Positions 3,921 through 20,036 of a stretch of DNA of 64,000 nt are shown here, piece after piece. This stretch comes from a virus: the UHGV virus genome UHGV-0117634; one strand, 5' to 3'. Each line of letters starts with the position of its first letter. The stretch's first letter is position 1. The position numbers and the translations under genes are program-made. The notes beneath the pieces were generated by a model. The model was given only the letters and a program-made list of their open reading frames with translations, was not told the origin of the DNA and searched no databases.

Positions 3921-4616
3921 TCAGTTTTTAACTAACATTGTTTTAATGTGTGGAAGGATTCTTTCGACCTTTGCCACGTTCTTTACTGTATCTTCTATAA
4001 AGCATACTACATCATAGTAAGGTAGAATGCAAGACTGAAGCATACGAACTTTCAAACTTTCTGCACTAATCTCATTGTCACCAAATCCACGCATAAACAG
4101 TAAGAAATCACTGTCTACATTTTCATTCAGGAAGAGATGAGTGACCACTCTCTGTGATTCACCACGAGCAGTTAAGAATCCTATATCAGCATTTTGTGAT
4201 ATCCCACACAGGATGTTAAAAACATAAGTTGGTTTAGCTCTGCGAGAGTCCACCAAGTTAGTGTACTGTGAGTAAGTACCATCATCTAACAGAGTTGCAT
4301 TAAGTTTCTTATCAAAACTTGTAAGAACACCATCAATATCTGCTAAGACCATTTTACGTTTTTCTTCCAAGTTCTTTGCAACCAAGATAAGACTATTACG
4401 ACCCACATATACAGTCTTACCTGTTAGCAAATCTTGACAAGGAATCTGTGTCTTTGTTGAATGAAAGTCTTCAAAGCTACATGCAACACATCTTGCTGTA
4501 TCTGCAAAGTCAGCTTTAGCAACGTCTGACCAGCTTGCATAACTGATATCTAAATCAAGTGGTTTGATATCATAAGCATGACACAGAACCGTATCAAATT
4601 GTTTTGATTCGCTCAT
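3921..4616 (-). CDS. HAD-like phosphatase-domain protein (putative nucleotidase), N-terminal region unknown
   Basis: LADIDGVLT matches HAD motif I (DxDG[TV]); later GFGDNE resembles motif IV. Confidence 0.35.
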   Translation of the reverse strand: MSESKQFDTVLCHAYDIKPLDLDISYASWSDVAKADFADTARCVACSFEDFHSTKTQIPCQDLLTGKTVYVGRNSLILVAKNLEEKRKMVLADIDGVLTSFDKKLNATLLDDGTYSQYTNLVDSRRAKPTYVFNILCGISQNADIGFLTARGESQRVVTHLFLNENVDSDFLLFMRGFGDNEISAESLKVRMLQSCILPYYDVVCFIEDTVKNVAKVERILPHIKTMLVKN

Positions 4617-5142
4617 ATTTTACCTTTTTAATGTTTGTTGCAAACTCACATTGAGCAAGCAATTTCATGTTATTGTACACATCTTGAGAATATTGTCTAG
4701 CCTTTGGAATCTTATATTTGTAACCAGCATTATAAGAAGCTAGGACACGCTTCATAGAGTACTTTCCATCTGGGTTACCGTGAACCTTTGTCCAGAATAG
4801 CAACTCTTTATGAGCCTCTTTTGCTGAGTAATGGAAGTCACTTACCAACTTCTTCTTAGCAACCTTTGGAGATATTTTGTTACGCTTTACAACAGTCTTC
4901 AAGTGATTCTGGAAAACACCATAATCATGAGTCCTTTTATTTTCTAACATGACACCTAATTGTGACTCTTGTAAGGCTATAGCTGCTAAAGGGATTCCCC
5001 AACCTTTTCCCATCTGTCCTTCGCCATAGTTATATGCTTTTAACATATTTACTTTCTGACTGATTGTAAGTTCTGGACAGTCAGATGCTGTAGCTAAATG
5101 TGCTGTAAAGAATAAGCACAAACCTAAAACAAATTTCTTCAT
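4594..5142 (-). CDS. signal-peptide lytic transglycosylase (candidate secreted/SAR endolysin)
   Basis: Start moved to MKKFVLGLCLFF (AGGAG RBS); signal peptide; Slt-like motifs ALQESQLG, GVFQ, SYNAGY. Confidence 0.55.
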   Translation of the reverse strand: MKKFVLGLCLFFTAHLATASDCPELTISQKVNMLKAYNYGEGQMGKGWGIPLAAIALQESQLGVMLENKRTHDYGVFQNHLKTVVKRNKISPKVAKKKLVSDFHYSAKEAHKELLFWTKVHGNPDGKYSMKRVLASYNAGYKYKIPKARQYSQDVYNNMKLLAQCEFATNIKKVKYERIKTI

Positions 5143-5206
5143 TTGCACTCCTATTTTGTTAAACATGCAGACAATTATACATCATCCTGCACATTTTTCA
5201 AATAAA

Positions 5207-8816: not shown

Positions 8817-8849
8817 AAGAATATCTCCTTAGTTGTCGATGTGGCAAAC

Positions 8850-8877
8850 TATATAATTTTATAGATGCCACTGTCAA
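8850..8877 (-). promoter_or_regulatory. sigma70-like promoter upstream of rIIA (TTGACA-N16-TATATA)
   Basis: Minus strand TTGACAgtggcatctataaaatTATATA about 30 nt upstream of the rIIA ATG. Confidence 0.4.
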
Positions 8878-8878
8878 G

Positions 8879-9058
8879 TTACTTTTTAAATTTCTTTCCA
8901 GTTCCGTTGCAGTAAGGGCAACAATGTCCCATACCAGCTATACCAGAACCTTCACACTCATCACAAGGTTCTGTCTCTGAGAAGTACTTGCATAGTAGCA
9001 CTGCAATGGCAACAATACAACCTAATGATAGAACAATCTCTAACCAATAACTTTGCAT
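8879..9058 (-). CDS. small membrane-anchored protein with two CxxCxGxG (DnaJ-type zinc-finger) motifs (~59 aa, not in ORF track)
   Basis: Translation MQSYWLEIVLSLGCIVAIAVLLCKYFSETEPCDECEGSGIAGMGHCCPYCNGTGKKFKK: one TMD then CDECEGSG and CPYCNGTG. Confidence 0.4.
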   Translation of the reverse strand: MQSYWLEIVLSLGCIVAIAVLLCKYFSETEPCDECEGSGIAGMGHCCPYCNGTGKKFKK

Positions 9059-9375
9059 ACATTTTCTCCTACAGTTCTAAATAGAACAAAACTTCTGTCA
9101 TGAACAATACTCGAAGATACTGCAAAACTATTCTCAAGTATATTTTTATTTGGATTGTAGAATCCTTCTTGGAACAAATCAAGTGCCTCTTGATGATTTT
9201 GTGGCAGACCTTTGATGTAAACCTTCAAAGTGACCGTTGTATAAATCTCAGAAGCTAACTCTGACTGTGCTGCTTGAAACAGTTCGTTGATAAACTTGTG
9301 ACCATCTTCAGGACGCTGAATGTTTTCCCAACGTTCTTCAATGATTACATTGACATTCATCTGTTTAATTTTCAT
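9040..9375 (-). CDS. hypothetical protein (111 aa)
   Basis: ORF-track ORF downstream of the NAMPT-family gene. Confidence 0.4.
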   Translation of the reverse strand: MKIKQMNVNVIIEERWENIQRPEDGHKFINELFQAAQSELASEIYTTVTLKVYIKGLPQNHQEALDLFQEGFYNPNKNILENSFAVSSSIVHDRSFVLFRTVGENVCKVIG

Positions 9376-9599
9376 AGTCTGTTAATTCCTTTGCAAGTTT
9401 TACGAAACTCTCTGCGAAGCTTTCTAATCTGACGTTTAGTAGGTTTTGTAGGGAATTTGTAATCATCCACAAAAACCTGCATATCATCTCTGTAGTCTTC
9501 TGCAAACCATAACTGCCAAGATGCTACACAATATCCACCAAAGAATCCAGTACTATCTGTATAAAATAAATCAGTGTTAAATCTCATAACATTCTCCAC
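9372..9599 (-). CDS. hypothetical protein (75 aa)
   Basis: ORF-track ORF; GGAG RBS; overlaps next gene start. Confidence 0.4.
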   Translation of the reverse strand: MENVMRFNTDLFYTDSTGFFGGYCVASWQLWFAEDYRDDMQVFVDDYKFPTKPTKRQIRKLRREFRKTCKGINRL

Positions 9600-9604
9600 A
9601 AATT

Positions 9605-9627
9605 AAAAAGGCTCCCGTAGGAGCCTC
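9605..9627 (-). terminator. rho-independent terminator after NAMPT-family gene
   Basis: Plus AAAAAGGCTCCCGTAGGAGCC; stem GGCTCC/GGAGCC, tetraloop, T-run on minus strand. Confidence 0.6.
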
Positions 9628-9640
9628 TTATCATACTATT

Positions 9641-11458
9641 TTACAGTTGCTTGTCAATAACTTTTCGTACATCACGAAGGTTAACGTAACCATATGGTTG
9701 TGAGTCACAGAAGACAAGCTTCAAAGCACACTGAGGGTTGTCAATGACACCTTCAAACTCTGCAAATCCTAAGCCATCTACAGCTTCCAGCTTATCACCA
9801 TCCCACATAGGAATGACACCACCAAAAGCAGATTTCTTAAGACCACTATCTGTTTTAGGGTCTTTAGCCAGCATGATTTCTTTACCATCCATCTGTGCAA
9901 GAGTTGCTTTAACAGCAAATGCAAAGGTATCGCGAGTCAAGTACTGATAAGTGTATGAACCTACACCAAACACTACGTTAGAACTTGCAAAACCCTTATC
10001 AGCAAGACGTGACAGGATATCATTAGCTCTTTCCAGAGTGATAGAATCACCGTAGATTAATCCAATGTGCTCATCCAGTACTTTGTACCCTTTGGAGTTA
10101 ACAGTGCCACCAAAGATGTTATACAGCGTGTGGATAGCCCCATCAATCTCTGCTGTCAGCATACGCTTCACAGTAAACTGTCCAGTTTTCTGAGCGGTAA
10201 TCAGGTTGATTGTATCAGCAGATTCAAAATCTTCCTTATCAACAACCATCTCATAACCTTCAGAGATTAGCCAAGCAGAGAACCCAAAGCCAATATCAGA
10301 CATTTCACAATTCAAGATTGTGTCATGCAGATGTGTATTGTTCGGTGCAAGCTCTTTCATGTGCTTGTAGAACATTGACTTAGCAGTTTCCCACTCAATG
10401 GCTTTGTAACCAGTAACAATGTGAACAGGGTCTCCAGAGTCTGGACGGATTACCAACTTACCATCACGATTCAGAATCACATTACGTAGCTCTGGTAAAA
10501 TCTGTGTAACAGTTCTCCAGAAGTTGTAAGTATCTGATACAACACTTGCAATACCAGTTGGGTAGACTTCTGTCAGAAGACGTTGGAAAGTTTCTACCTC
10601 ACCACGCCAACGCATTGCATCTAACAAGTTGTCAGACTGTAGCAGATGCCAATCACTTACTTCTTTTGCACAACTATTCCATGAGATGTTTGCACACATC
10701 ACAGAGTGTTCAGTTGCTGGTACAGAGTTCCCGATATCACTTACAGTCATAAACTGACCATATGCACGTTTAGCTGTGTATACAGCAGGGAAGCTGTCAG
10801 TACCTTTAAAACTTGTCAGGTGACCTACTGCGTTAAACGCATCATCTGTGAATCCAGACATACCACGCATTGCAAAGTCATGACACTGCCAAGGAAGATG
10901 GAAGTCGTTATCACAGGTCAAATCTGACCACTTCTTACAAATACGTTTGTAATGTAGTGCAATAGTTGCAATTGTACAAGCTTTCCAGATTTCAGCAGAG
11001 AAAGCATCTTCGAGATAACCAGCTACCCAATGGAAGCCCTCTACAGTGTTTTTGAATATAATCATCGGGACACGCATAGGGACAATTGTACCTTCCTCTA
11101 CAGAGTAGACTTCAACAGGCAGATAACCTAAGTCATGAAGTTCTTCCCAATGTTGGCGACCAATAGCATCTGCACCAAGAACACCATTCATGATTTCCAA
11201 GATTTCGTCAATGGCTTCTTTCTTATCGCGTTCAAAGAACGTTGCATTCCAGTGGTCTACCAGATAGTCTTTTACAAAACGCTGAATACCAAATGCTACA
11301 ACACCATCAATTTCTAATGGAGAGTTAAACCATTTGTCTCCACGAGGTGTTAAGTTCAGCATAAGATACTGAGTAGCATCTGGATACTGGTAGATATGAC
11401 CAGCTTTGTAAGCATCTGCGTTAAGTCCTGCTGGTACTGCATAGATTGATTTAGTCAT
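9641..11458 (-). CDS. nadV: nicotinamide phosphoribosyltransferase-family protein (NAMPT/NadV-like; candidate Namat of an NAD+ reconstitution pathway)
   Basis: Clear NAMPT motifs: DAYKAGHIYQYP, FAMRGMSGF...SFKGTDS, SVPATEHS, VVSDTYNFW, IRPDSGDP, IYGDS, FGVGSY...LTRD. Confidence 0.9.
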   Translation of the reverse strand: MTKSIYAVPAGLNADAYKAGHIYQYPDATQYLMLNLTPRGDKWFNSPLEIDGVVAFGIQRFVKDYLVDHWNATFFERDKKEAIDEILEIMNGVLGADAIGRQHWEELHDLGYLPVEVYSVEEGTIVPMRVPMIIFKNTVEGFHWVAGYLEDAFSAEIWKACTIATIALHYKRICKKWSDLTCDNDFHLPWQCHDFAMRGMSGFTDDAFNAVGHLTSFKGTDSFPAVYTAKRAYGQFMTVSDIGNSVPATEHSVMCANISWNSCAKEVSDWHLLQSDNLLDAMRWRGEVETFQRLLTEVYPTGIASVVSDTYNFWRTVTQILPELRNVILNRDGKLVIRPDSGDPVHIVTGYKAIEWETAKSMFYKHMKELAPNNTHLHDTILNCEMSDIGFGFSAWLISEGYEMVVDKEDFESADTINLITAQKTGQFTVKRMLTAEIDGAIHTLYNIFGGTVNSKGYKVLDEHIGLIYGDSITLERANDILSRLADKGFASSNVVFGVGSYTYQYLTRDTFAFAVKATLAQMDGKEIMLAKDPKTDSGLKKSAFGGVIPMWDGDKLEAVDGLGFAEFEGVIDNPQCALKLVFCDSQPYGYVNLRDVRKVIDKQL

Positions 11459-12421: not shown

Positions 12422-12871
12422 TTATTCCCAAATAATTTTCTTTCTTTTTAATTTAATGATGTTCTTTTTACAATACTCAACTGCCTCATCCATTGTATCA
12501 AACATCATCTCACCAATAAAGTACTTAACATTTGGGTTTTGCTCTTGTATTATTTGGATTTCTGTAGTTTTTACTTGGTCTTTTACACCAGTAACCAGTC
12601 TTGCTAGTCGTGGTTCATTTTCCATAAATGGTTTGCTTAACTGGTTGATATAAAGAACTCCACCATTTTTGCTACCATGCTTGACAGTCACGAGAACCCC
12701 AACTTTACGCAACGCTGATAAGTAATACCTTGAATTAGCTATCGGCATTTTCTTAAGATAATCACAATTACTTCTTAGAGCTTTCACCGCTTCATTGGAA
12801 TCAAATTCCTTATCAGTCCCGAACTTTTCGTGTAGTATCTCAACAAGCGTTACATAAAATGAGCTAATCAT
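12422..12871 (-). CDS. hypothetical protein, tandem paralog B (149 aa)
   Basis: Same length as and about 45% identical to 12898..13347 (shared EIL..KFGT..FDSNEA...YL.ALR..GVL.TV and C-terminal YFI...MF.T..EAVE.CKK.IIK.KR.KIIWE). Confidence 0.6.
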   Translation of the reverse strand: MISSFYVTLVEILHEKFGTDKEFDSNEAVKALRSNCDYLKKMPIANSRYYLSALRKVGVLVTVKHGSKNGGVLYINQLSKPFMENEPRLARLVTGVKDQVKTTEIQIIQEQNPNVKYFIGEMMFDTMDEAVEYCKKNIIKLKRKKIIWE

Positions 12872-12897: not shown

Positions 12898-13347
12898 TTA
12901 TTCCCAAATAATCTTTGCACGTTTAATCTTAATGATGTGTTTTTTGCAATGCTCAACAGCCTCTTCTAAGGTATTAAACATCGCACTTTCAATAAAGTAC
13001 CTTACGTCAGGGTCTGTGTCAACAATTTTGTTCTCATCTTTATTTTTAGGTTCTTCATGTGATTCATCCAATAATGGTGATAGCTGGATGTGCTTTTCCA
13101 TGAAGGATTTATTTAACTGGTTAATGCTCAGTCTACCTTTACTTTTTATCTGGCCTACAGTCATTAGTACACCAGTTTGTCGTAATGCTGTCAAGTAACC
13201 ACGAGCATTATTAATTGATTGACCTCTAATGTATAGGCTTTTCTTTCGAAGTACATCAATAGCCTCATTAGAATCAAATGTCCCCTCTGTTCCAAACTCT
13301 TTATACAAAATTTCTATTACATGTTTTTGTAAATTACAAAAAATCAT
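12898..13347 (-). CDS. hypothetical protein, tandem paralog A (149 aa)
   Basis: Paralog of 12422..12871; conserved GTAACTTTTGACTGAGAGAAA leader upstream. Confidence 0.6.
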   Translation of the reverse strand: MIFCNLQKHVIEILYKEFGTEGTFDSNEAIDVLRKKSLYIRGQSINNARGYLTALRQTGVLMTVGQIKSKGRLSINQLNKSFMEKHIQLSPLLDESHEEPKNKDENKIVDTDPDVRYFIESAMFNTLEEAVEHCKKHIIKIKRAKIIWE

Positions 13348-16336: not shown

Positions 16337-18478
16337 TTACATAGATTTTCTATCCTGAATCTCAGCAATTTTTGCATCGTTCATTCTGGAAGTGCCTTTA
16401 ATCTTAGTCCAGCCAAGATAACCACAAACACGGTTAATCACAGAGATATCGTGTGAGTTGCACTTAGTGCATAATTCAACATCTGCACTTGGACGGTGAC
16501 CACAATTTTCACAGATTGCTAAATCAAAGTTAACACCTTGATAGAAACCTTTACCCATACCTCTTGTCACACAAGCCCTGATAGCTTTATGGTTCTCTGG
16601 GTTAGCAATACGAACGTACTGGATATGACCACCATTACAAGAGTGGAAGAAAGGTTCTTCTAAGTCTTGCTTTTCAAACGGTGTAATGTCTGCACCAACA
16701 TTCATGTGGAAACTGTTTGTGAAGTATTCTTTATCAGAAACACCTTTAACAACTCCGAACATATTTCTAAACTGCTTCAATTGCGTACCACAAAGACTCT
16801 CAGCAGGTGTACCATAAAGTGCATACAGGAAGCCGTCTTCCTGCTTAAACTGCTCCAGCTTGCTATTCAGATAGCTTAAAACCTTGCTTGCAATATCACC
16901 ATCAGACTCATGCAATCTTCTACCTTGAGCAAGCACTGTTAATTCATCTAATGCAGTCACGCCAAAAGATGCTGTAAAAGACTTAACAGTATCCCAACCA
17001 ATCTTATCAGTTGGCTTCTTATGTCCTTTATACAATCCACCTTGTGTGAAAGCTAAAGGGTTAGAACTTGCTGGCATATTAGCAATCATCTCATATCGCT
17101 TCTTATGGAAGCTTCGAATCATTTCAAGGTATTTGTCAAGCTCTTTCCAGAAGTCTAAACCATTCTCTTCAGAGTATTTGTAAATCATCGGCAGATTAAG
17201 AGACACTGCACCGATGTTTGCTCTACCTGTGTAGAACTCTTTACCTTCCTCATCATAGTAAGGAGATAAGAAAGCCCTACAACCCATTGGAGAGATAACT
17301 GCACCTGAACGTTCAAAAGCTTCTGCAACAGAACCGTGACCAGACACACTTAAGAAGTCTGGATACATAGCTTTAGAGCAACACTCAATAGCTTTATCAT
17401 AAAGCTGCCCCTGCCAAGGGTCTAACATGTGTCTTGTTTCATCATAGATATAAACCAGTTTAGGGAACACAACAGGCTTCTTAGATTTACCTTGACCATT
17501 CATCCTAACATCTAGAATAGTCTTAGCAATCATAAATTGCAAACGGTTATCTCCACTAGCCATGTCTGGTTCAAGTAAACCAAATGTTAATGTTGTGAAT
17601 GCAAAGTCACCACGACTGCAAGGAACAGTGTTCAGTTTCATTTCCAGAGATTGGAATCCCTGAGTTAGTTCAATCTGAAGTTGCTCTTTAGCGTAGTGGT
17701 ATACTTCCTTGCTTGGAATATTGTATTGCTTTGCTTTTTCCAGATGATACTCAAAAGACTTCTTAGCATATGGCACAAGAACCTTGTCAATCTCTGGGAT
17801 AGTGAATCCACCAAACTGCTGTGCAGTTGCTGAGAGTACAACATCACCGATAACCTGTAAGGCTGATAGTACAGACTTAGGTTCACAGTATTCGATGCCG
17901 GACATTTCAAAACCACCTTCTAAGACACTCCCAATGTCAAATAAGCAGCAGTTAATACCACCGAAGATTAAGTCTCTTAAGTCATGGATATAAATGAATC
18001 CATCTTCAATAGCACTTGCTTCTTCTGGTGTCAAGTGATACTGCTTAAAGATTTCTTTTGTCAAATATCCACGGATGATTGAACCTTTTGTAGAGATTAA
18101 GCTGCTGTCAAAGTTAGCATTCTCACGGTCACCTAAGAAGAGTGTGTCTTTAGTTTTCTGGTAAAGTTCATCCCAATTCTGTGCAACCTCTTTACGATAG
18201 TTTCTGTAGGTTGAATATGACTCATAGATTTCATGGTTTACCTCTGCCAGAGTCCCTTCTACAATACTGTGAACATCATCTACAGAGATGAGCATAGCAT
18301 TCTGATTAGTTGCTCTGACAAGCAGTCTCATAAAGGCTGATTCAAGAGCATGGATAACTTCTAGTGGTAACTCTTTGTAGCCAACTCTATTAGCTGACTT
18401 GGTAACTGCTTCGACGATTTTATTTACGTTTGGCTTTTCCAGTGAACCGTCTTTCTTAATAATTTGTACTTTAACCAT
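16337..18478 (-). CDS. nrdD: anaerobic ribonucleoside-triphosphate reductase (class III)
   Basis: ATP-cone start (MVKVQIIKKDGSLEK), C-terminal glycyl-radical motif RVCGY and Cys-rich zinc site; start moved from 18568 to the Met with AGGAG RBS just downstream of a terminator. Confidence 0.85.
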   Translation of the reverse strand: MVKVQIIKKDGSLEKPNVNKIVEAVTKSANRVGYKELPLEVIHALESAFMRLLVRATNQNAMLISVDDVHSIVEGTLAEVNHEIYESYSTYRNYRKEVAQNWDELYQKTKDTLFLGDRENANFDSSLISTKGSIIRGYLTKEIFKQYHLTPEEASAIEDGFIYIHDLRDLIFGGINCCLFDIGSVLEGGFEMSGIEYCEPKSVLSALQVIGDVVLSATAQQFGGFTIPEIDKVLVPYAKKSFEYHLEKAKQYNIPSKEVYHYAKEQLQIELTQGFQSLEMKLNTVPCSRGDFAFTTLTFGLLEPDMASGDNRLQFMIAKTILDVRMNGQGKSKKPVVFPKLVYIYDETRHMLDPWQGQLYDKAIECCSKAMYPDFLSVSGHGSVAEAFERSGAVISPMGCRAFLSPYYDEEGKEFYTGRANIGAVSLNLPMIYKYSEENGLDFWKELDKYLEMIRSFHKKRYEMIANMPASSNPLAFTQGGLYKGHKKPTDKIGWDTVKSFTASFGVTALDELTVLAQGRRLHESDGDIASKVLSYLNSKLEQFKQEDGFLYALYGTPAESLCGTQLKQFRNMFGVVKGVSDKEYFTNSFHMNVGADITPFEKQDLEEPFFHSCNGGHIQYVRIANPENHKAIRACVTRGMGKGFYQGVNFDLAICENCGHRPSADVELCTKCNSHDISVINRVCGYLGWTKIKGTSRMNDAKIAEIQDRKSM

Positions 18479-18963: not shown

Positions 18964-20036
18964 TAAGGAACCTCTAAAAATCCTGAATTTAAATCATCAA
19001 CAACAGTATTCAAAAGATACGCACCATTTTGTTGTTCTTGGTTAGCGTTTTGCTCTTTATCAATTTCCATCTTCTTAATCATATATTTCAAAGGTGGTTC
19101 TTTAGGAGCTACGAAGTCTCTTGGAATACCAAACATATCATACAATGGAGCAGCATTGTAGTAAACCCATTCATGAAGAAGTTTTGTATTCAAGCCTACA
19201 ACAGCACGTCCTTCAGAGAAGATATAATAAGACCATTTCTCTTCACTTTCAACTACTTCATCCAGAATTACTTTAATCTCTGGGAGTACTTGACGGAAAG
19301 CTTCTTGCCACTCTTCATCTTTCAAAGTTTCTTTTAATGCTTCGATATCAATCTTTGTGTGAATGATTTCGTCAAGCATAATTTTCTGTACTGCTTGTGC
19401 AATCCCTTGGAATTTATCTTGTGCATCAAGTGCAAAGGTACATGCAAAGGATGCCATGAAGGAAATACCCTCAAGTGCTGTTACTGCAAAGAGACCTTTC
19501 AAGATTACTTTGTGGAAGTGTAAAGGGTCTTTCTCCATTAACTCTTGACGAACATAGTTTAAACGATAGTTAATACCTTCGTCAAGTAATTCTGCCAGTG
19601 CTCTGTTTACAGTCTTCAATCTGTCCTGAACAGCAGTGTTCTGGTTAATCTCATCAAGGATTGTTTCAGGGTTCTTGATACACTGACGAACAATCTCTGA
19701 ATAAGTTAGTGCATGAAGGTTCTCAATTTCTGATTGCTTCATGATAGCAGTTGCATAGATATCATCAGAGATGAATGGTGCAAATGCAAAAGCTAAACTC
19801 TTAGCAACCTGTGTATCTGCTTCCCATTGCCATTTCAGAATCTCAAGCATTACACCAGACATTGACTGAGGGACACTCTCAAAGTCTAAGCGTGATTGCT
19901 CAAATGGAAATTCCTCTTCAGACCAGTCTTGAGCTTTCTGCTGCTTATACAGTTCAAAGATTTTTGGATAGTGTTTATTAAGTGAATCAAAAGTCTTACG
20001 TTCTTCACCTAAGAAGATTGGATGTGAATTAATCAT
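18963..20036 (-). CDS. nrdB: ribonucleotide reductase class I small subunit
   Basis: Ferritin-like di-iron ligand pattern (e.g. LDEIIH), 357 aa, downstream of nrdA. Confidence 0.8.
   Translation of the reverse strand: MINSHPIFLGEERKTFDSLNKHYPKIFELYKQQKAQDWSEEEFPFEQSRLDFESVPQSMSGVMLEILKWQWEADTQVAKSLAFAFAPFISDDIYATAIMKQSEIENLHALTYSEIVRQCIKNPETILDEINQNTAVQDRLKTVNRALAELLDEGINYRLNYVRQELMEKDPLHFHKVILKGLFAVTALEGISFMASFACTFALDAQDKFQGIAQAVQKIMLDEIIHTKIDIEALKETLKDEEWQEAFRQVLPEIKVILDEVVESEEKWSYYIFSEGRAVVGLNTKLLHEWVYYNAAPLYDMFGIPRDFVAPKEPPLKYMIKKMEIDKEQNANQEQQNGAYLLNTVVDDLNSGFLEVP

What the first reader, a model, noticed from the sequence alone, without database searches (positions are those of the whole stretch)
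8879..9058. Unannotated small membrane protein with two CxxCxGxG zinc-finger motifs
A 59-aa ORF just below the ORF-track size cutoff encodes one transmembrane helix followed by CDECEGSG and CPYCNGTG, the spacing seen in DnaJ-type zinc fingers. A membrane-tethered mini zinc finger downstream of rIIA could modulate a host membrane protein or chaperone.
Basis: seen in the sequence. Interest (0 to 1): 0.45.

Follow-up and report, generated by a model that had tools for sequence, protein, structure and literature searches.

The report
Phage membrane-anchored mini zinc-finger protein
The 59-codon reading frame is a real, conserved gene of Felix O1-like phages that encodes a membrane anchor carrying one DnaJ/anti-TRAP-type zinc knuckle; related genomes already list it as a hypothetical or membrane protein, its function is unknown, and it is dispensable in laboratory screens.

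Summary
Window 8879-9058 (minus strand) encodes a 59-aa protein with an N-terminal transmembrane helix and two CxxCxGxG motifs. These are the only two such motifs in the six-frame translation of the window.

It is a real gene:
- A GGAG Shine-Dalgarno sequence lies 7 nt upstream.
- dN/dS is 0.06-0.15 among close relatives.
- It matches PHROG 3931 over its full length (E 3.5e-33).
- Orthologues occur across the sampled Ounavirinae genera, and a distant copy in RB49-like Krischvirus.

All eight Cys/Gly motif positions are invariant. With two motifs, not four, the protein can form one zinc centre, as in anti-TRAP; it is not a DnaJ. Charge distribution predicts N-out/C-in, which places the finger in the cytoplasm.

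Two details in the finding are wrong. The gene lies upstream of rIIA in the direction of transcription, not downstream. It is also annotated in GenBank relatives as "hypothetical" or "membrane protein".

In published knockout screens of phage Bas63, the orthologue gp83 is non-essential. It is not needed for rIIA/B-mediated escape from QatABCD.

My best guess, which is inferred, is an accessory membrane-tethered protein-binding module aimed at a host target. It is an uncharacterised but ordinary member of a known motif class, of moderate to low interest.

The parts
8879..9058 (-). CDS for a 59-aa small membrane zinc-finger protein (PHROG 3931; orthologue of Bas63 gp83, Mijalis gp001, Michonne gp002)
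   Evidence: ORF and translation. Full-length match to phrog_3931, E 3.5e-33. tblastn finds 259 phage records. dN/dS is 0.06-0.15 among Mooglevirus orthologues.
9066..9069 (-). Shine-Dalgarno GGAG, 7 nt upstream of the ATG
   Evidence: Read from the sequence. An equivalent GGAG or GAGGTGAG is present in all relatives examined and is annotated as an RBS in Mijalis and Michonne.
8993..9043 (-). Hydrophobic core of the transmembrane helix (residues 6-22; the predicted helix spans about residues 3-28)
   Evidence: Mean Kyte-Doolittle value 2.74. AlphaFold2 helix 3-28/29 with pLDDT 76-86.
8942..8965 (-). First CxxCxGxG motif (C32-D-E-C35-E-G37-S-G39)
   Evidence: C32, C35, G37 and G39 are invariant in the 14-sequence alignment.
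8897..8920 (-). Second CxxCxGxG motif (C47-P-Y-C50-N-G52-T-G54), preceded by an extra, semi-conserved Cys46
   Evidence: C47, C50, G52 and G54 are invariant. Cys46 is absent in P0002 and Arno162.
9040..9375 (-). Upstream 111-aa ORF (PHROG 4262, function unknown). Its last 19 nt overlap the start of the zinc-finger gene, which suggests translational coupling.
   Evidence: The same 19-nt overlap occurs in Mooglevirus, Felixounavirus and Suspvirus. This ORF is absent in Arno162 and Krischvirus.
9372..9599 (-). First gene of the three-gene cassette, 75 aa, DUF7279 / PHROG 2375
9606..9657 (-). Sigma-70-like promoter (TTGACA-16-TATGAT, 9657-9630) directly followed by a GC-rich hairpin and T-run (9629-9606), at the end of the NAMPT gene and ahead of the cassette
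   Evidence: The identical hairpin and hexamers are found in Bas63. These are consensus matches only.
8848..8877 (-). Sigma-70-like promoter (TTGACA-18-TATAGT) between the zinc-finger stop codon and rIIA
   Evidence: It is not conserved in Felixounavirus, where the spacer to rIIA is only 28 nt.

Best explanation
This is a genuine accessory gene of a Mooglevirus (Felix O1-like, Ounavirinae) phage, probably expressed early. Early expression is inferred only from sigma-70-like promoter matches.

Its 59-aa product is a single-pass inner-membrane protein. It has a short periplasmic N-terminus (about 5 residues), one transmembrane helix, and a roughly 35-residue cytoplasmic tail. In that tail, two adjacent CxxCxGxG motifs fold back on each other to bind one zinc ion through four cysteines. 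This is the arrangement in Bacillus anti-TRAP and in half of the DnaJ cysteine-rich domain.

The zinc knuckle has no room for catalysis. It most likely acts as a membrane-tethered protein-binding module that captures or blocks a host protein at the cytoplasmic face of the inner membrane. It could also be a phage protein. The benefit would be conditional on the host, for example host takeover or counter-defence, and it is not part of core replication.

Shown here: the gene is real, conserved and under purifying selection; the motifs are invariant; the orthologue is dispensable in laboratory hosts.

Inferred: zinc binding, N-out/C-in topology, and a protein-binding inhibitor or adaptor role. The target is unknown. 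FtsH is one candidate, by analogy with plant FIP.
For: Coding:
- A Shine-Dalgarno sequence lies 7 nt upstream.
- Synonymous changes greatly outnumber non-synonymous ones: window vs Michonne 11 vs 3, JH2 vs SflM_004 7 vs 0, dN/dS 0.06-0.15.
- Full-length PHROG 3931 match.

Distribution:
- 259 phage records, all Ounavirinae apart from records whose organism names look mislabelled (Staphylococcus, Campylobacter); only the Staphylococcus SA1 record was seen in the listed rows.
- Kolesnikvirus phiEa104 gp118 and Pectobacterium phage Arno162.
- A 52-aa copy, RB49ORF046c, in Krischvirus. It sits in a different genomic context and still has phrog_3931 as its best match, E 4e-10.

Zinc module:
- C32, C35, G37, G39, C47, C50, G52 and G54 are invariant across 14 sequences.
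- A profile search of the PDB hits the DnaJ Cys-rich domain 1exk_A (E 5.6e-9), and anti-TRAP 3lcz_A and 2bx9_A (E 0.008 and 0.03). The anti-TRAP matches are of equal length, 31-53 against 11-33.

Topology: there are 0 Lys/Arg N-terminal of the hydrophobic core in all 11 homologues tabulated, against 2-6 on the C-terminal side. There is no signal-peptide-like basic n-region; phiEa104 gp118, read directly, fits the same pattern.

Accessory status:
- Bas63 gp83 is the orthologue. Its PhageMaP fitness scores are mostly positive, meaning non-essential (doi 10.1101/2024.10.10.617714).
- Frameshifted or truncated copies exist in several records.
- The gene sits between two validated counter-defence modules of Bas63: the NAD-salvage genes g79/g80 and rIIA/B g84/g85.

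Analogy: plant FIP has the same layout, a membrane anchor plus two CxxCxGxG motifs on the stromal side, and binds the membrane protease FtsH5 (PMC5915565).
Against: - There is no experimental or computational evidence for any partner.
- The knockout is neutral in every sheet I read: two of the four laboratory-host sheets and three defence-system sheets, including QatABCD. The paper reports no gp83 phenotype in the text I read. A counter-defence role is therefore not supported for the systems tested.
- PADLOC gives no hit.
- In Mooglevirus proteins the 15 residues after the helix are net acidic (1 Lys against 4-5 Asp/Glu), so the topology call rests on counting Lys/Arg only.
- Conservation of the first six residues is confounded by the 19-nt overlap with the upstream gene.
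Confidence: 0.45

Rival explanations
1. It is a membrane-localised holdase or co-chaperone-like factor, using the substrate-binding role of the DnaJ zinc-finger domain. It would help insertion or assembly of phage membrane-associated proteins such as RIIA/RIIB or the co-translated 111-aa neighbour.
For: The gene is always immediately upstream of rIIA in Ounavirinae and probably co-transcribed with it in Felixounavirus, where the spacer is 28 nt with no convincing promoter. It has a 19-nt overlap with the 111-aa ORF. Its closest sequence relative with a solved structure is the DnaJ Cys-rich domain. By established knowledge, J-less DnaJ-like zinc-finger proteins in plastids act as assembly factors (discussed in PMC5915565).
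Against: In the Bas63 QatABCD screen, rIIA and rIIB knockouts are strongly depleted (-1.0 to -2.5) while the gp83 knockout is neutral (+0.66 to +0.81). RII function therefore does not need gp83. The 111-aa partner is absent in Arno162 and Krischvirus, and the Krischvirus copy is not next to rII. A single roughly 25-residue knuckle is a small surface for general holdase activity.
Confidence: 0.15
2. It is a superinfection-exclusion or membrane-protection factor. The small inner-membrane protein would block DNA entry by other phages or stabilise the membrane. Single-phage knockout screens would not detect this.
For: It is a small single-pass membrane protein, probably expressed early, sits next to the 'membrane integrity protector' genes rIIA/B, and is dispensable in pooled fitness assays that do not test superinfection. 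By general knowledge, T4 Imm and Sp are small early membrane proteins of this functional type.
Against: There is no sequence similarity to known exclusion proteins: PHROG and Pfam give only unknown-function or zinc-motif hits. The conserved functional-looking part is predicted to be cytoplasmic, whereas exclusion usually acts at the periplasmic face or in the membrane.
Confidence: 0.12
3. It has the opposite topology (N-in/C-out). The Cys-rich domain would then be periplasmic and disulfide-bonded or redox-active, for example a thiol-disulfide relay or a lysis-timing regulator comparable to an antiholin.
For: In Krischvirus the gene overlaps the 3' end of nrdH (glutaredoxin) by 11 nt. By established knowledge, DnaJ-type fingers can show thiol-oxidoreductase activity. 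The juxtamembrane region in Mooglevirus is acidic. The extra Cys46 and the transmembrane cysteines Cys14 and Cys23 are present.
Against: No homologue has Lys/Arg N-terminal of the hydrophobic core, and the C-side carries 2-6. CxxCxGxG pairs with invariant glycines are the signature of Zn(Cys)4 knuckles. NrdH is itself cytoplasmic, so that linkage fits a cytoplasmic domain equally well. Holin, endolysin and spanin genes are annotated elsewhere in Bas63. The extra cysteines are not conserved.
Confidence: 0.1
4. It is not a functional gene: a chance ORF, or a decaying remnant kept only because it overlaps neighbouring signals.
For: It is very short. Frameshifted or truncated copies exist in several records: phiWec177, NJ12, GE_vB_B3 and some metagenomic contigs. 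The knockout is neutral.
Against: There is strong purifying selection. Eight motif positions are invariant across genera that have saturated synonymous divergence. An RBS is conserved. The gene occurs independently in a second phage family, in another genomic context. Motif occurrence is far above chance.
Confidence: 0.02

Closest known systems
Anti-TRAP (RtpA) of Bacillus subtilis/licheniformis (PDB 2bx9, 3lcz; Pfam PF15777)
   Same: It is about 53 aa. Two adjacent CxxCxGxG motifs form one Zn(Cys)4 centre, and the inter-motif spacing equals the family consensus (equal-length, presumably ungapped profile match 31-53 vs 11-33). It works purely by binding and blocking another protein.
   Different: Anti-TRAP is soluble and has a C-terminal helix for trimer/dodecamer assembly. 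The phage protein has an N-terminal membrane anchor and only about 5 residues after the finger. Scores are far below the curated cut-offs (11.1 vs 32 bits; 14 vs 65 bits). Host lineage and genomic context are unrelated.
Cysteine-rich (zinc-finger) domain of DnaJ/Hsp40 (PDB 1exk; Pfam PF00684)
   Same: The CxxCxGxG motif is identical, and this is the best solved-structure sequence match (E 5.6e-9). The spacing resembles DnaJ motifs 3-4.
   Different: DnaJ has four motifs forming two interleaved zinc centres, plus a J domain, a G/F region and C-terminal domains. The phage protein has two motifs, so one centre, and no J domain. The Pfam score is 16 bits against a gathering cut-off of 32.7, and covers only model positions 36-65 of 65. 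The 'dnaJ/chaperone/heat shock protein' labels in a few GenBank records are over-annotations.
Plant thylakoid FIP (FtsH5-interacting protein, At5g02160) and other J-less DnaJ-like zinc-finger membrane proteins
   Same: The mature architecture is the same: a roughly 9-kDa protein with a short lumenal N-terminus, one transmembrane anchor, and a C-terminal finger with two CxxCxGxG motifs on the stromal side, which is equivalent to the cytoplasm. It acts by binding a membrane protein, FtsH5 (PMC5915565).
   Different: FIP is eukaryotic and plastid-targeted with a transit peptide. Sequence homology to the phage family was not tested here. No interaction of the phage protein with bacterial FtsH is known.
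Orthologues already in databases: Bas63 gp83 (QXV81774), Mijalis gp001 (ARB06496), Felix O1 'unknown', phiEa104 gp118, RB49ORF046c
   Same: They belong to the same family, PHROG 3931, and all share the transmembrane segment plus CxxCxGxG-x5-6-(C)CxxCxGxG.
   Different: All are annotated only as hypothetical or (putative) membrane protein, and none has an assigned function. The Krischvirus copy lies next to nrdH rather than rIIA.

Membership tests
PHROG 3931 (phage protein family of unknown function) | Full-length, significant match to the family profile | tested here: met
   E 3.5e-33, residues 1-59 on profile positions 1-59 of 59. The Bas63, RB49-type and Arno162 proteins also have it as their best hit.
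DnaJ cysteine-rich domain (Pfam PF00684) | CxxCxGxG zinc-binding repeat | tested here: met
   Two perfect repeats, invariant in homologues.
DnaJ cysteine-rich domain (Pfam PF00684) | Four repeats forming two zinc centres, with a score above the Pfam gathering cut-off | tested here: not met
   Only two repeats. The score is 16.0 bits against a cut-off of 32.7, and only profile positions 36-65 of 65 are matched.
DnaJ/Hsp40 co-chaperone | J domain (HPD motif) that stimulates Hsp70 | tested here: not met
   The 59-aa protein has no J-domain hit in Pfam or NCBIfam. DnaJ equivalog scores are about 16 bits against cut-offs of 377-556.
Anti-TRAP (Pfam PF15777 / NCBIfam NF058604) | Two adjacent CxxCxGxG motifs with the same spacing, forming a single Zn(Cys)4 centre | tested here: met
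   Motif and spacing: equal-length (presumably ungapped) profile alignment 31-53 vs residues 11-33 of 3lcz_A and 2bx9_A, E 0.008 and 0.03. Zinc binding itself was not measured.
Anti-TRAP (Pfam PF15777 / NCBIfam NF058604) | Score above curated cut-offs; soluble protein with a C-terminal oligomerisation helix | tested here: not met
   11.1 vs 32 bits and 14 vs 65 bits. An N-terminal transmembrane helix is present instead, and only 5 residues follow the finger.
Membrane-anchored J-less DnaJ-like zinc-finger proteins (plant FIP type) | One transmembrane anchor followed by a C-terminal finger with two CxxCxGxG motifs | tested here: met
   Helix 3-28 plus motifs at residues 32-39 and 47-54. The FIP architecture is taken from PMC5915565.
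Membrane-anchored J-less DnaJ-like zinc-finger proteins (plant FIP type) | Sequence homology to FIP, and binding to an FtsH protease | not tested
No plant proteins were identified among the top 27 representative hits, but only 12 of those sequences were inspected. Binding needs an experiment.
Bitopic N-out/C-in inner-membrane protein | A hydrophobic segment long enough to span the membrane, and positive-inside charge bias | tested here: met
   The 17-residue cores have mean hydropathy of 2.0-2.8. Lys/Arg counts are 0 on the N side and 2-6 on the C side in 11 homologues; phiEa104 gp118 fits on direct reading.
Bitopic N-out/C-in inner-membrane protein | Experimentally determined membrane insertion and orientation | not testable with these tools
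   Needs PhoA/GFP fusions or cysteine accessibility assays.
Known anti-phage defence or counter-defence proteins (PADLOC-DB; PhageMaP hits) | Profile match, or a knockout phenotype on a defence system | tested here: not met
   PADLOC gives no hits. Bas63 gp83 is neutral in the sheets read (TerY-P, one further defence sheet, qatABCD) and is not among the validated counters.

The most novel reading that the evidence does not exclude
The protein is a new type of phage host-takeover or counter-defence effector: a membrane-tethered, anti-TRAP-like zinc knuckle. It would dock onto a host inner-membrane machine and inhibit it from the cytoplasmic side. Candidate targets are the FtsH protease, by analogy with plant FIP-FtsH5, or a membrane-acting abortive-infection effector not included in the panels tested so far. 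The variable loop between the two motifs would set target specificity. Horizontal spread between Ounavirinae and RB49-like phages would reflect a shared enterobacterial target.
Probability: 0.15. Interest if true: 0.6.

Novelty: new member of a known kind. Interest (0 to 1): 0.3.

Why it matters
Small phage membrane proteins are a large, mostly unexplored class, and this family is compact and easy to work with. It consists of one anchor plus one zinc knuckle, is conserved across the Ounavirinae genera sampled here (several hundred phage records), and was exchanged with RB49-like T-even relatives.

In Bas63 it sits between two validated counter-defence modules, NAD+ reconstitution and RIIA/B. 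If it proved to inhibit a host membrane protein, it would add a minimal inhibitor scaffold and possibly a new phage-host conflict point.

As things stand it is an already-catalogued hypothetical protein with a recognisable motif and no phenotype in the published screens. Its immediate value is mainly better annotation: 'membrane-anchored DnaJ/anti-TRAP-type zinc-knuckle protein', not 'DnaJ chaperone'.

Tried and rejected
- The word-indexed protein search with the single sequence returned only 2 proteins. It needed a profile of divergent members to reach 20.
- The exhaustive HMMER search of 1.84 billion representatives found only 4 full-length clusters. The rest were unrelated multi-repeat CxxCxGxG proteins. 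The family is therefore narrow, and there is no informative distant relative.
- PADLOC gave nothing, and NCBIfam only sub-threshold DnaJ and RtpA matches.
- Seven literature searches found no study of this family: CxxCxGxG + phage; Felixounavirus + membrane protein + rIIA; DnaJ-like zinc finger + bacteriophage; Ounavirinae + zinc finger; Felixounavirus transcriptome; small membrane protein / zinc finger / anti-defense. The only related material was the PhageMaP data set.
- A guessed accession for Bas63 (MZ501111) turned out to be Bas51. The correct accession, MZ501086, came from the paper.
- I tested whether the 111-aa neighbour is conserved next to the finger in the most divergent genus. phiEa104 gp117 shows no significant similarity (E 0.09), and the 111-aa protein has no meaningful Pfam, PDB, NCBIfam or PADLOC match.
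- An obligatory partnership with RIIA/B is rejected on the QatABCD data.
- A lysis-gene role is rejected as unlikely, because holin, endolysin and spanins are annotated elsewhere.
- The other CxxC...CxxC strings in the window are the NrdD C-terminal zinc ribbon and an antisense artefact inside nrdB.
Full report
**1. What is there**

The finding's coordinates hold an ORF on the minus strand: ATG at 9058-9056 and TAA at 8881-8879. It encodes MQSYWLEIVLSLGCIVAIAVLLCKYFSETEPCDECEGSGIAGMGHCCPYCNGTGKKFKK.

- A GGAG Shine-Dalgarno sequence (9069-9066) lies 7 nt before the ATG.
- The start lies 19 nt inside the end of an upstream 111-aa ORF (9375-9040).
- The stop is followed by a 62-nt spacer and then rIIA (8816-6444).
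- The gene is therefore upstream of rIIA in the direction of transcription, not downstream as the finding says.
- The motifs CDECEGSG and CPYCNGTG are the only two CxxCxGxG matches in the six-frame translation of the whole 64-kb window. Shuffled sequence gives a mean of 0.11 per window and never more than one.

**2. Where the window comes from**

- The 1.3-kb stretch around the ORF is 98.8% identical to Salmonella phage S.Kent 1-2-1 and 93-97% identical to Citrobacter phages HP1, Moogle, Mijalis and Michonne. These are Mooglevirus, Ounavirinae, the Felix O1-like myophages.
- The local gene order on the minus strand is: ribose-phosphate pyrophosphokinase, NAMPT, [75 aa DUF7279], [111 aa PHROG 4262], [59 aa zinc finger], rIIA, rIIB.

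**3. It is a real gene**

- The protein matches PHROG 3931 end to end (E 3.5e-33).
- tblastn finds it in 259 phage records. About 255 of these are full length, and all are Ounavirinae apart from records whose organism names look mislabelled.
- Starting from the Felix-type, Arno162-type and RB49-type sequences extends the family to Felix O1 itself, Suspvirus, Kolesnikvirus (phiEa104 gp118), Pectobacterium Arno phages and Krischvirus.
- In most records it is an annotated CDS. Labels include 'hypothetical protein', 'membrane protein' and 'putative cytoplasmic membrane protein', with an annotated RBS in Mijalis and Michonne.
- Codon-level comparison shows purifying selection:

| Comparison | Synonymous changes | Non-synonymous changes | dN/dS |
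|---|---|---|---|
| window vs Michonne | 11 | 3 | 0.06 |
| window vs Sf14 | 12 | 5 | 0.09 |
| JH2 vs SflM_004 | 7 | 0 | 0 |

- Between genera, synonymous sites are saturated while dN stays at about 0.4.
- An SD-like sequence precedes the ATG in all ten relatives examined.
- The exhaustive HMMER search of 1.84 billion cluster representatives found only four full-length clusters. The other hits are unrelated proteins with many CxxCxGxG repeats. The family is therefore narrow and phage-specific.

**4. Anatomy**

- AlphaFold2 predicts a helix over residues 3-28 (pLDDT 76-86), followed by a short beta-hairpin-like region of only moderate confidence.
- Across 14 intact homologues at 31-92% identity, the invariant positions are M1 and C32, C35, G37, G39, C47, C50, G52 and G54. 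These eight are exactly the Cys and Gly positions of the two motifs. phiEa104 gp118 keeps them too.
- The loop between the motifs varies between genera: IAGMGH, YTRAG, LVGYG, THGDG, LRGDG.
- The extra Cys46 and the transmembrane cysteines are not conserved.
- A profile of the family hits the E. coli DnaJ Cys-rich domain (1exk_A, E 5.6e-9), human DNAJA3 (2ctt_A) and anti-TRAP (3lcz_A E 0.008; 2bx9_A E 0.03). The anti-TRAP alignments are of equal length and presumably ungapped, 31-53 against residues 11-33.
- Pfam and NCBIfam scores for DnaJ and anti-TRAP are all well below the curated cut-offs.
- There are only two motifs and no J domain, so the protein is not a DnaJ. Two adjacent motifs can only pair with each other, which gives one Zn(Cys)4 centre, the anti-TRAP arrangement. 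This last step rests on established structural knowledge of anti-TRAP and DnaJ, not on a measurement here.

**5. Topology**

- In all 11 homologues tabulated there is no Lys/Arg N-terminal of the hydrophobic core. The C-terminal side carries 2-6, often right after the helix (CKYF, AKHF, LKKCKHC). phiEa104 gp118 (AKYR), read directly, fits the same pattern.
- There is no basic n-region as in a Sec signal peptide.
- The positive-inside rule therefore predicts N-out/C-in, with the finger in the reducing cytoplasm where zinc-thiolate sites are stable.
- This is an inference. The Mooglevirus juxtamembrane stretch is net acidic, which weakens it somewhat.

**6. Context and expression**

- A sigma-70-like promoter (TTGACA-16-TATGAT) is followed at once by a GC-rich hairpin and T-run at the end of NAMPT, ahead of the three-gene cassette. 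Both are identical in Bas63.
- The three small genes overlap: 4 nt between the first pair and 19 nt between the second. The 19-nt overlap with the 111-aa ORF is conserved in Mooglevirus, Felixounavirus and Suspvirus.
- This overlap also means that conservation of the N-terminal MQxYW(L/I) is confounded by dual coding with the neighbour's C-terminal CK(V/H)IG*.
- In the window a second promoter-like site (TTGACA-18-TATAGT) lies between the finger gene and rIIA. In Felixounavirus the spacer is 28 nt without a convincing promoter, so there the gene is probably co-transcribed with rIIA/B.
- The 111-aa partner is missing in Arno162.
- In Krischvirus the finger gene sits in a different place. It overlaps the end of nrdH by 11 nt and precedes gene 55.2.
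- The finger gene therefore behaves as an independent, transferable unit.

**7. Functional data from the literature**

- Bas63 (MZ501086) gene bas63_0083, 'putative membrane protein', is the orthologue. Its sequence is MQAYWIEILLSLGSVAVFVYLLCKYYAEHKKCDYCNGEGYTRAGCCPMCGGSGKMFNK, and it sits in the same position between the 111-aa ORF and rIIA.
- In the PhageMaP genome-wide knockout screen (doi 10.1101/2024.10.10.617714), its fitness scores were as follows. By the paper's definition, a score below 0 means essential.

| Sheet | Gene | Fitness scores (three replicates) |
|---|---|---|
| S17-1 host | gp83 | +0.25 / +0.11 / +0.48 |
| a second host | gp83 | +1.27 / -0.07 / -0.17 |
| TerY-P | gp83 | +0.10 / +0.51 / +1.16 |
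| another defence strain | gp83 | +0.39 / +0.66 / +0.88 |
| qatABCD | gp83 | +0.77 / +0.66 / +0.81 |
| qatABCD | rIIA (g84) | -1.26 / -1.30 / -1.61 |
| qatABCD | rIIB (g85) | -1.05 / -2.46 / -2.45 |

- The paper validates g79/g80 (NAD+ salvage) and g84/g85 (rIIA/B) as counter-defence genes. It does not mention g83 in the text I read.
- The finger gene therefore lies inside an accessory, counter-defence-rich region. It is itself dispensable under all conditions I could read, and it is not required for RII function against QatABCD.
- Several database copies are frameshifted or truncated: phiWec177, NJ12, GE_vB_B3 and some metagenomic contigs. This fits dispensability, though sequencing error is also possible.
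- No paper in the searchable library deals with the family itself.

**8. Most likely mechanism**

A roughly 25-residue zinc knuckle has no catalytic potential. In its characterised relatives the module is a protein-binding surface:

- Anti-TRAP blocks TRAP by direct binding.
- The DnaJ finger contacts substrates and DnaK.
- Plant FIP has the same layout as the phage protein: a short lumenal N-terminus, one anchor, and two CxxCxGxG motifs on the stromal side. It binds the membrane protease FtsH5.

I therefore favour a membrane-tethered binding module that acts on a host protein at the cytoplasmic face of the inner membrane, with a conditional, host-specific benefit. It could also act on a phage protein. 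My confidence is about 0.45 for the package. It is much higher for 'real membrane zinc-knuckle protein' and much lower for any particular target.

Rivals, with the evidence for and against each given in the rivals section:
- a membrane holdase for RII or the neighbour, weakened and by the separate Krischvirus context;
- a superinfection-exclusion role, which is untested;
- inverted topology with a periplasmic redox domain, which is against the charge bias;
- a non-functional ORF, which is refuted.

**9. Comparison, novelty and verdict**

- The protein is a member of PHROG 3931.
- It carries the DnaJ/anti-TRAP-type motif but fails the membership tests for DnaJ and for anti-TRAP. The 'dnaJ/chaperone/heat shock protein' labels in a few records are over-annotations.
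- In architecture it is closest to plant FIP-type J-less zinc-finger membrane proteins. Homology to these was not tested.
What is missing is function.
- I rate it a new, uncharacterised member of a known kind, with interest 0.3.
- The most novel reading not excluded is a membrane-tethered inhibitor of FtsH or of an untested membrane Abi effector. I give this a probability of about 0.15.

Noticed in passing
window 9606-9657 (minus strand); L016 11439-11490: A near-consensus sigma-70 promoter (TTGACA-16-TATGAT) abuts a 10-bp GC-rich hairpin with a T-run, AAGAGGCTCC-TACG-GGAGCCTTTT. The unit is identical between this Mooglevirus window and the Felixounavirus Bas63, although the flanking genes have diverged. 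It could be a combined terminator and 5' stem-loop unit at the NAMPT/cassette boundary.
   Followed up: partly
window 9040-9375 (minus strand): The 111-aa ORF (PHROG 4262) has no Pfam, NCBIfam, PADLOC or meaningful PDB match. Its stop overlaps the zinc-finger start by a conserved 19 nt. It has no fitness data in PhageMaP, where g82 is blank. Its function is unknown.
   Followed up: partly
window 12422-12871 and 12898-13347 (minus strand): Two adjacent 149-aa ORFs are clear paralogues of each other. They share motifs such as FGT..FDSNEA and a ...KKxIIKxKRxKIIWE C-terminus, so this is a tandem duplication of an uncharacterised gene.
   Followed up: no
window 4594-5166 (minus strand): A 190-aa ORF begins with a signal-peptide-like N-terminus (MKKFVLGLCLFFTAHLATASDC...). 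This may be a secreted or lipoprotein-type wall-active protein lying just beyond rIIB. It was not examined.
   Followed up: no
L012 2236-2653; L020 2742-3159 (Krischvirus W115, RB49): In RB49-like phages the homologous 52-aa zinc-finger gene overlaps the 3' end of nrdH (glutaredoxin) by 11 nt. This hints at co-translation with a thiol-redox protein.
   Followed up: partly
P0035, P0038, P0040, P0024, P0039; L004 2350-2750: Several Felixounavirus records or contigs carry frameshifted or N-terminally truncated versions of the gene, broken at different positions. These are either independent inactivations or sequencing errors; GE_vB_B3 is an UNVERIFIED record.
   Followed up: partly
GU169904.1 120084-120257 (hit H110): The record named 'Staphylococcus phage SA1' (147 kb) contains a 91%-identical copy of the Felixounavirus gene. 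Two 'Campylobacter' records also match. These are probably chimeric or mislabelled records.
   Followed up: no
window 16460-16513 (minus strand); 19422-19487 (plus strand): There are other CxxC...CxxC strings in the window. The first is the C-terminal zinc ribbon of the anaerobic ribonucleotide reductase NrdD. The second lies antisense inside nrdB and looks spurious.
   Followed up: yes
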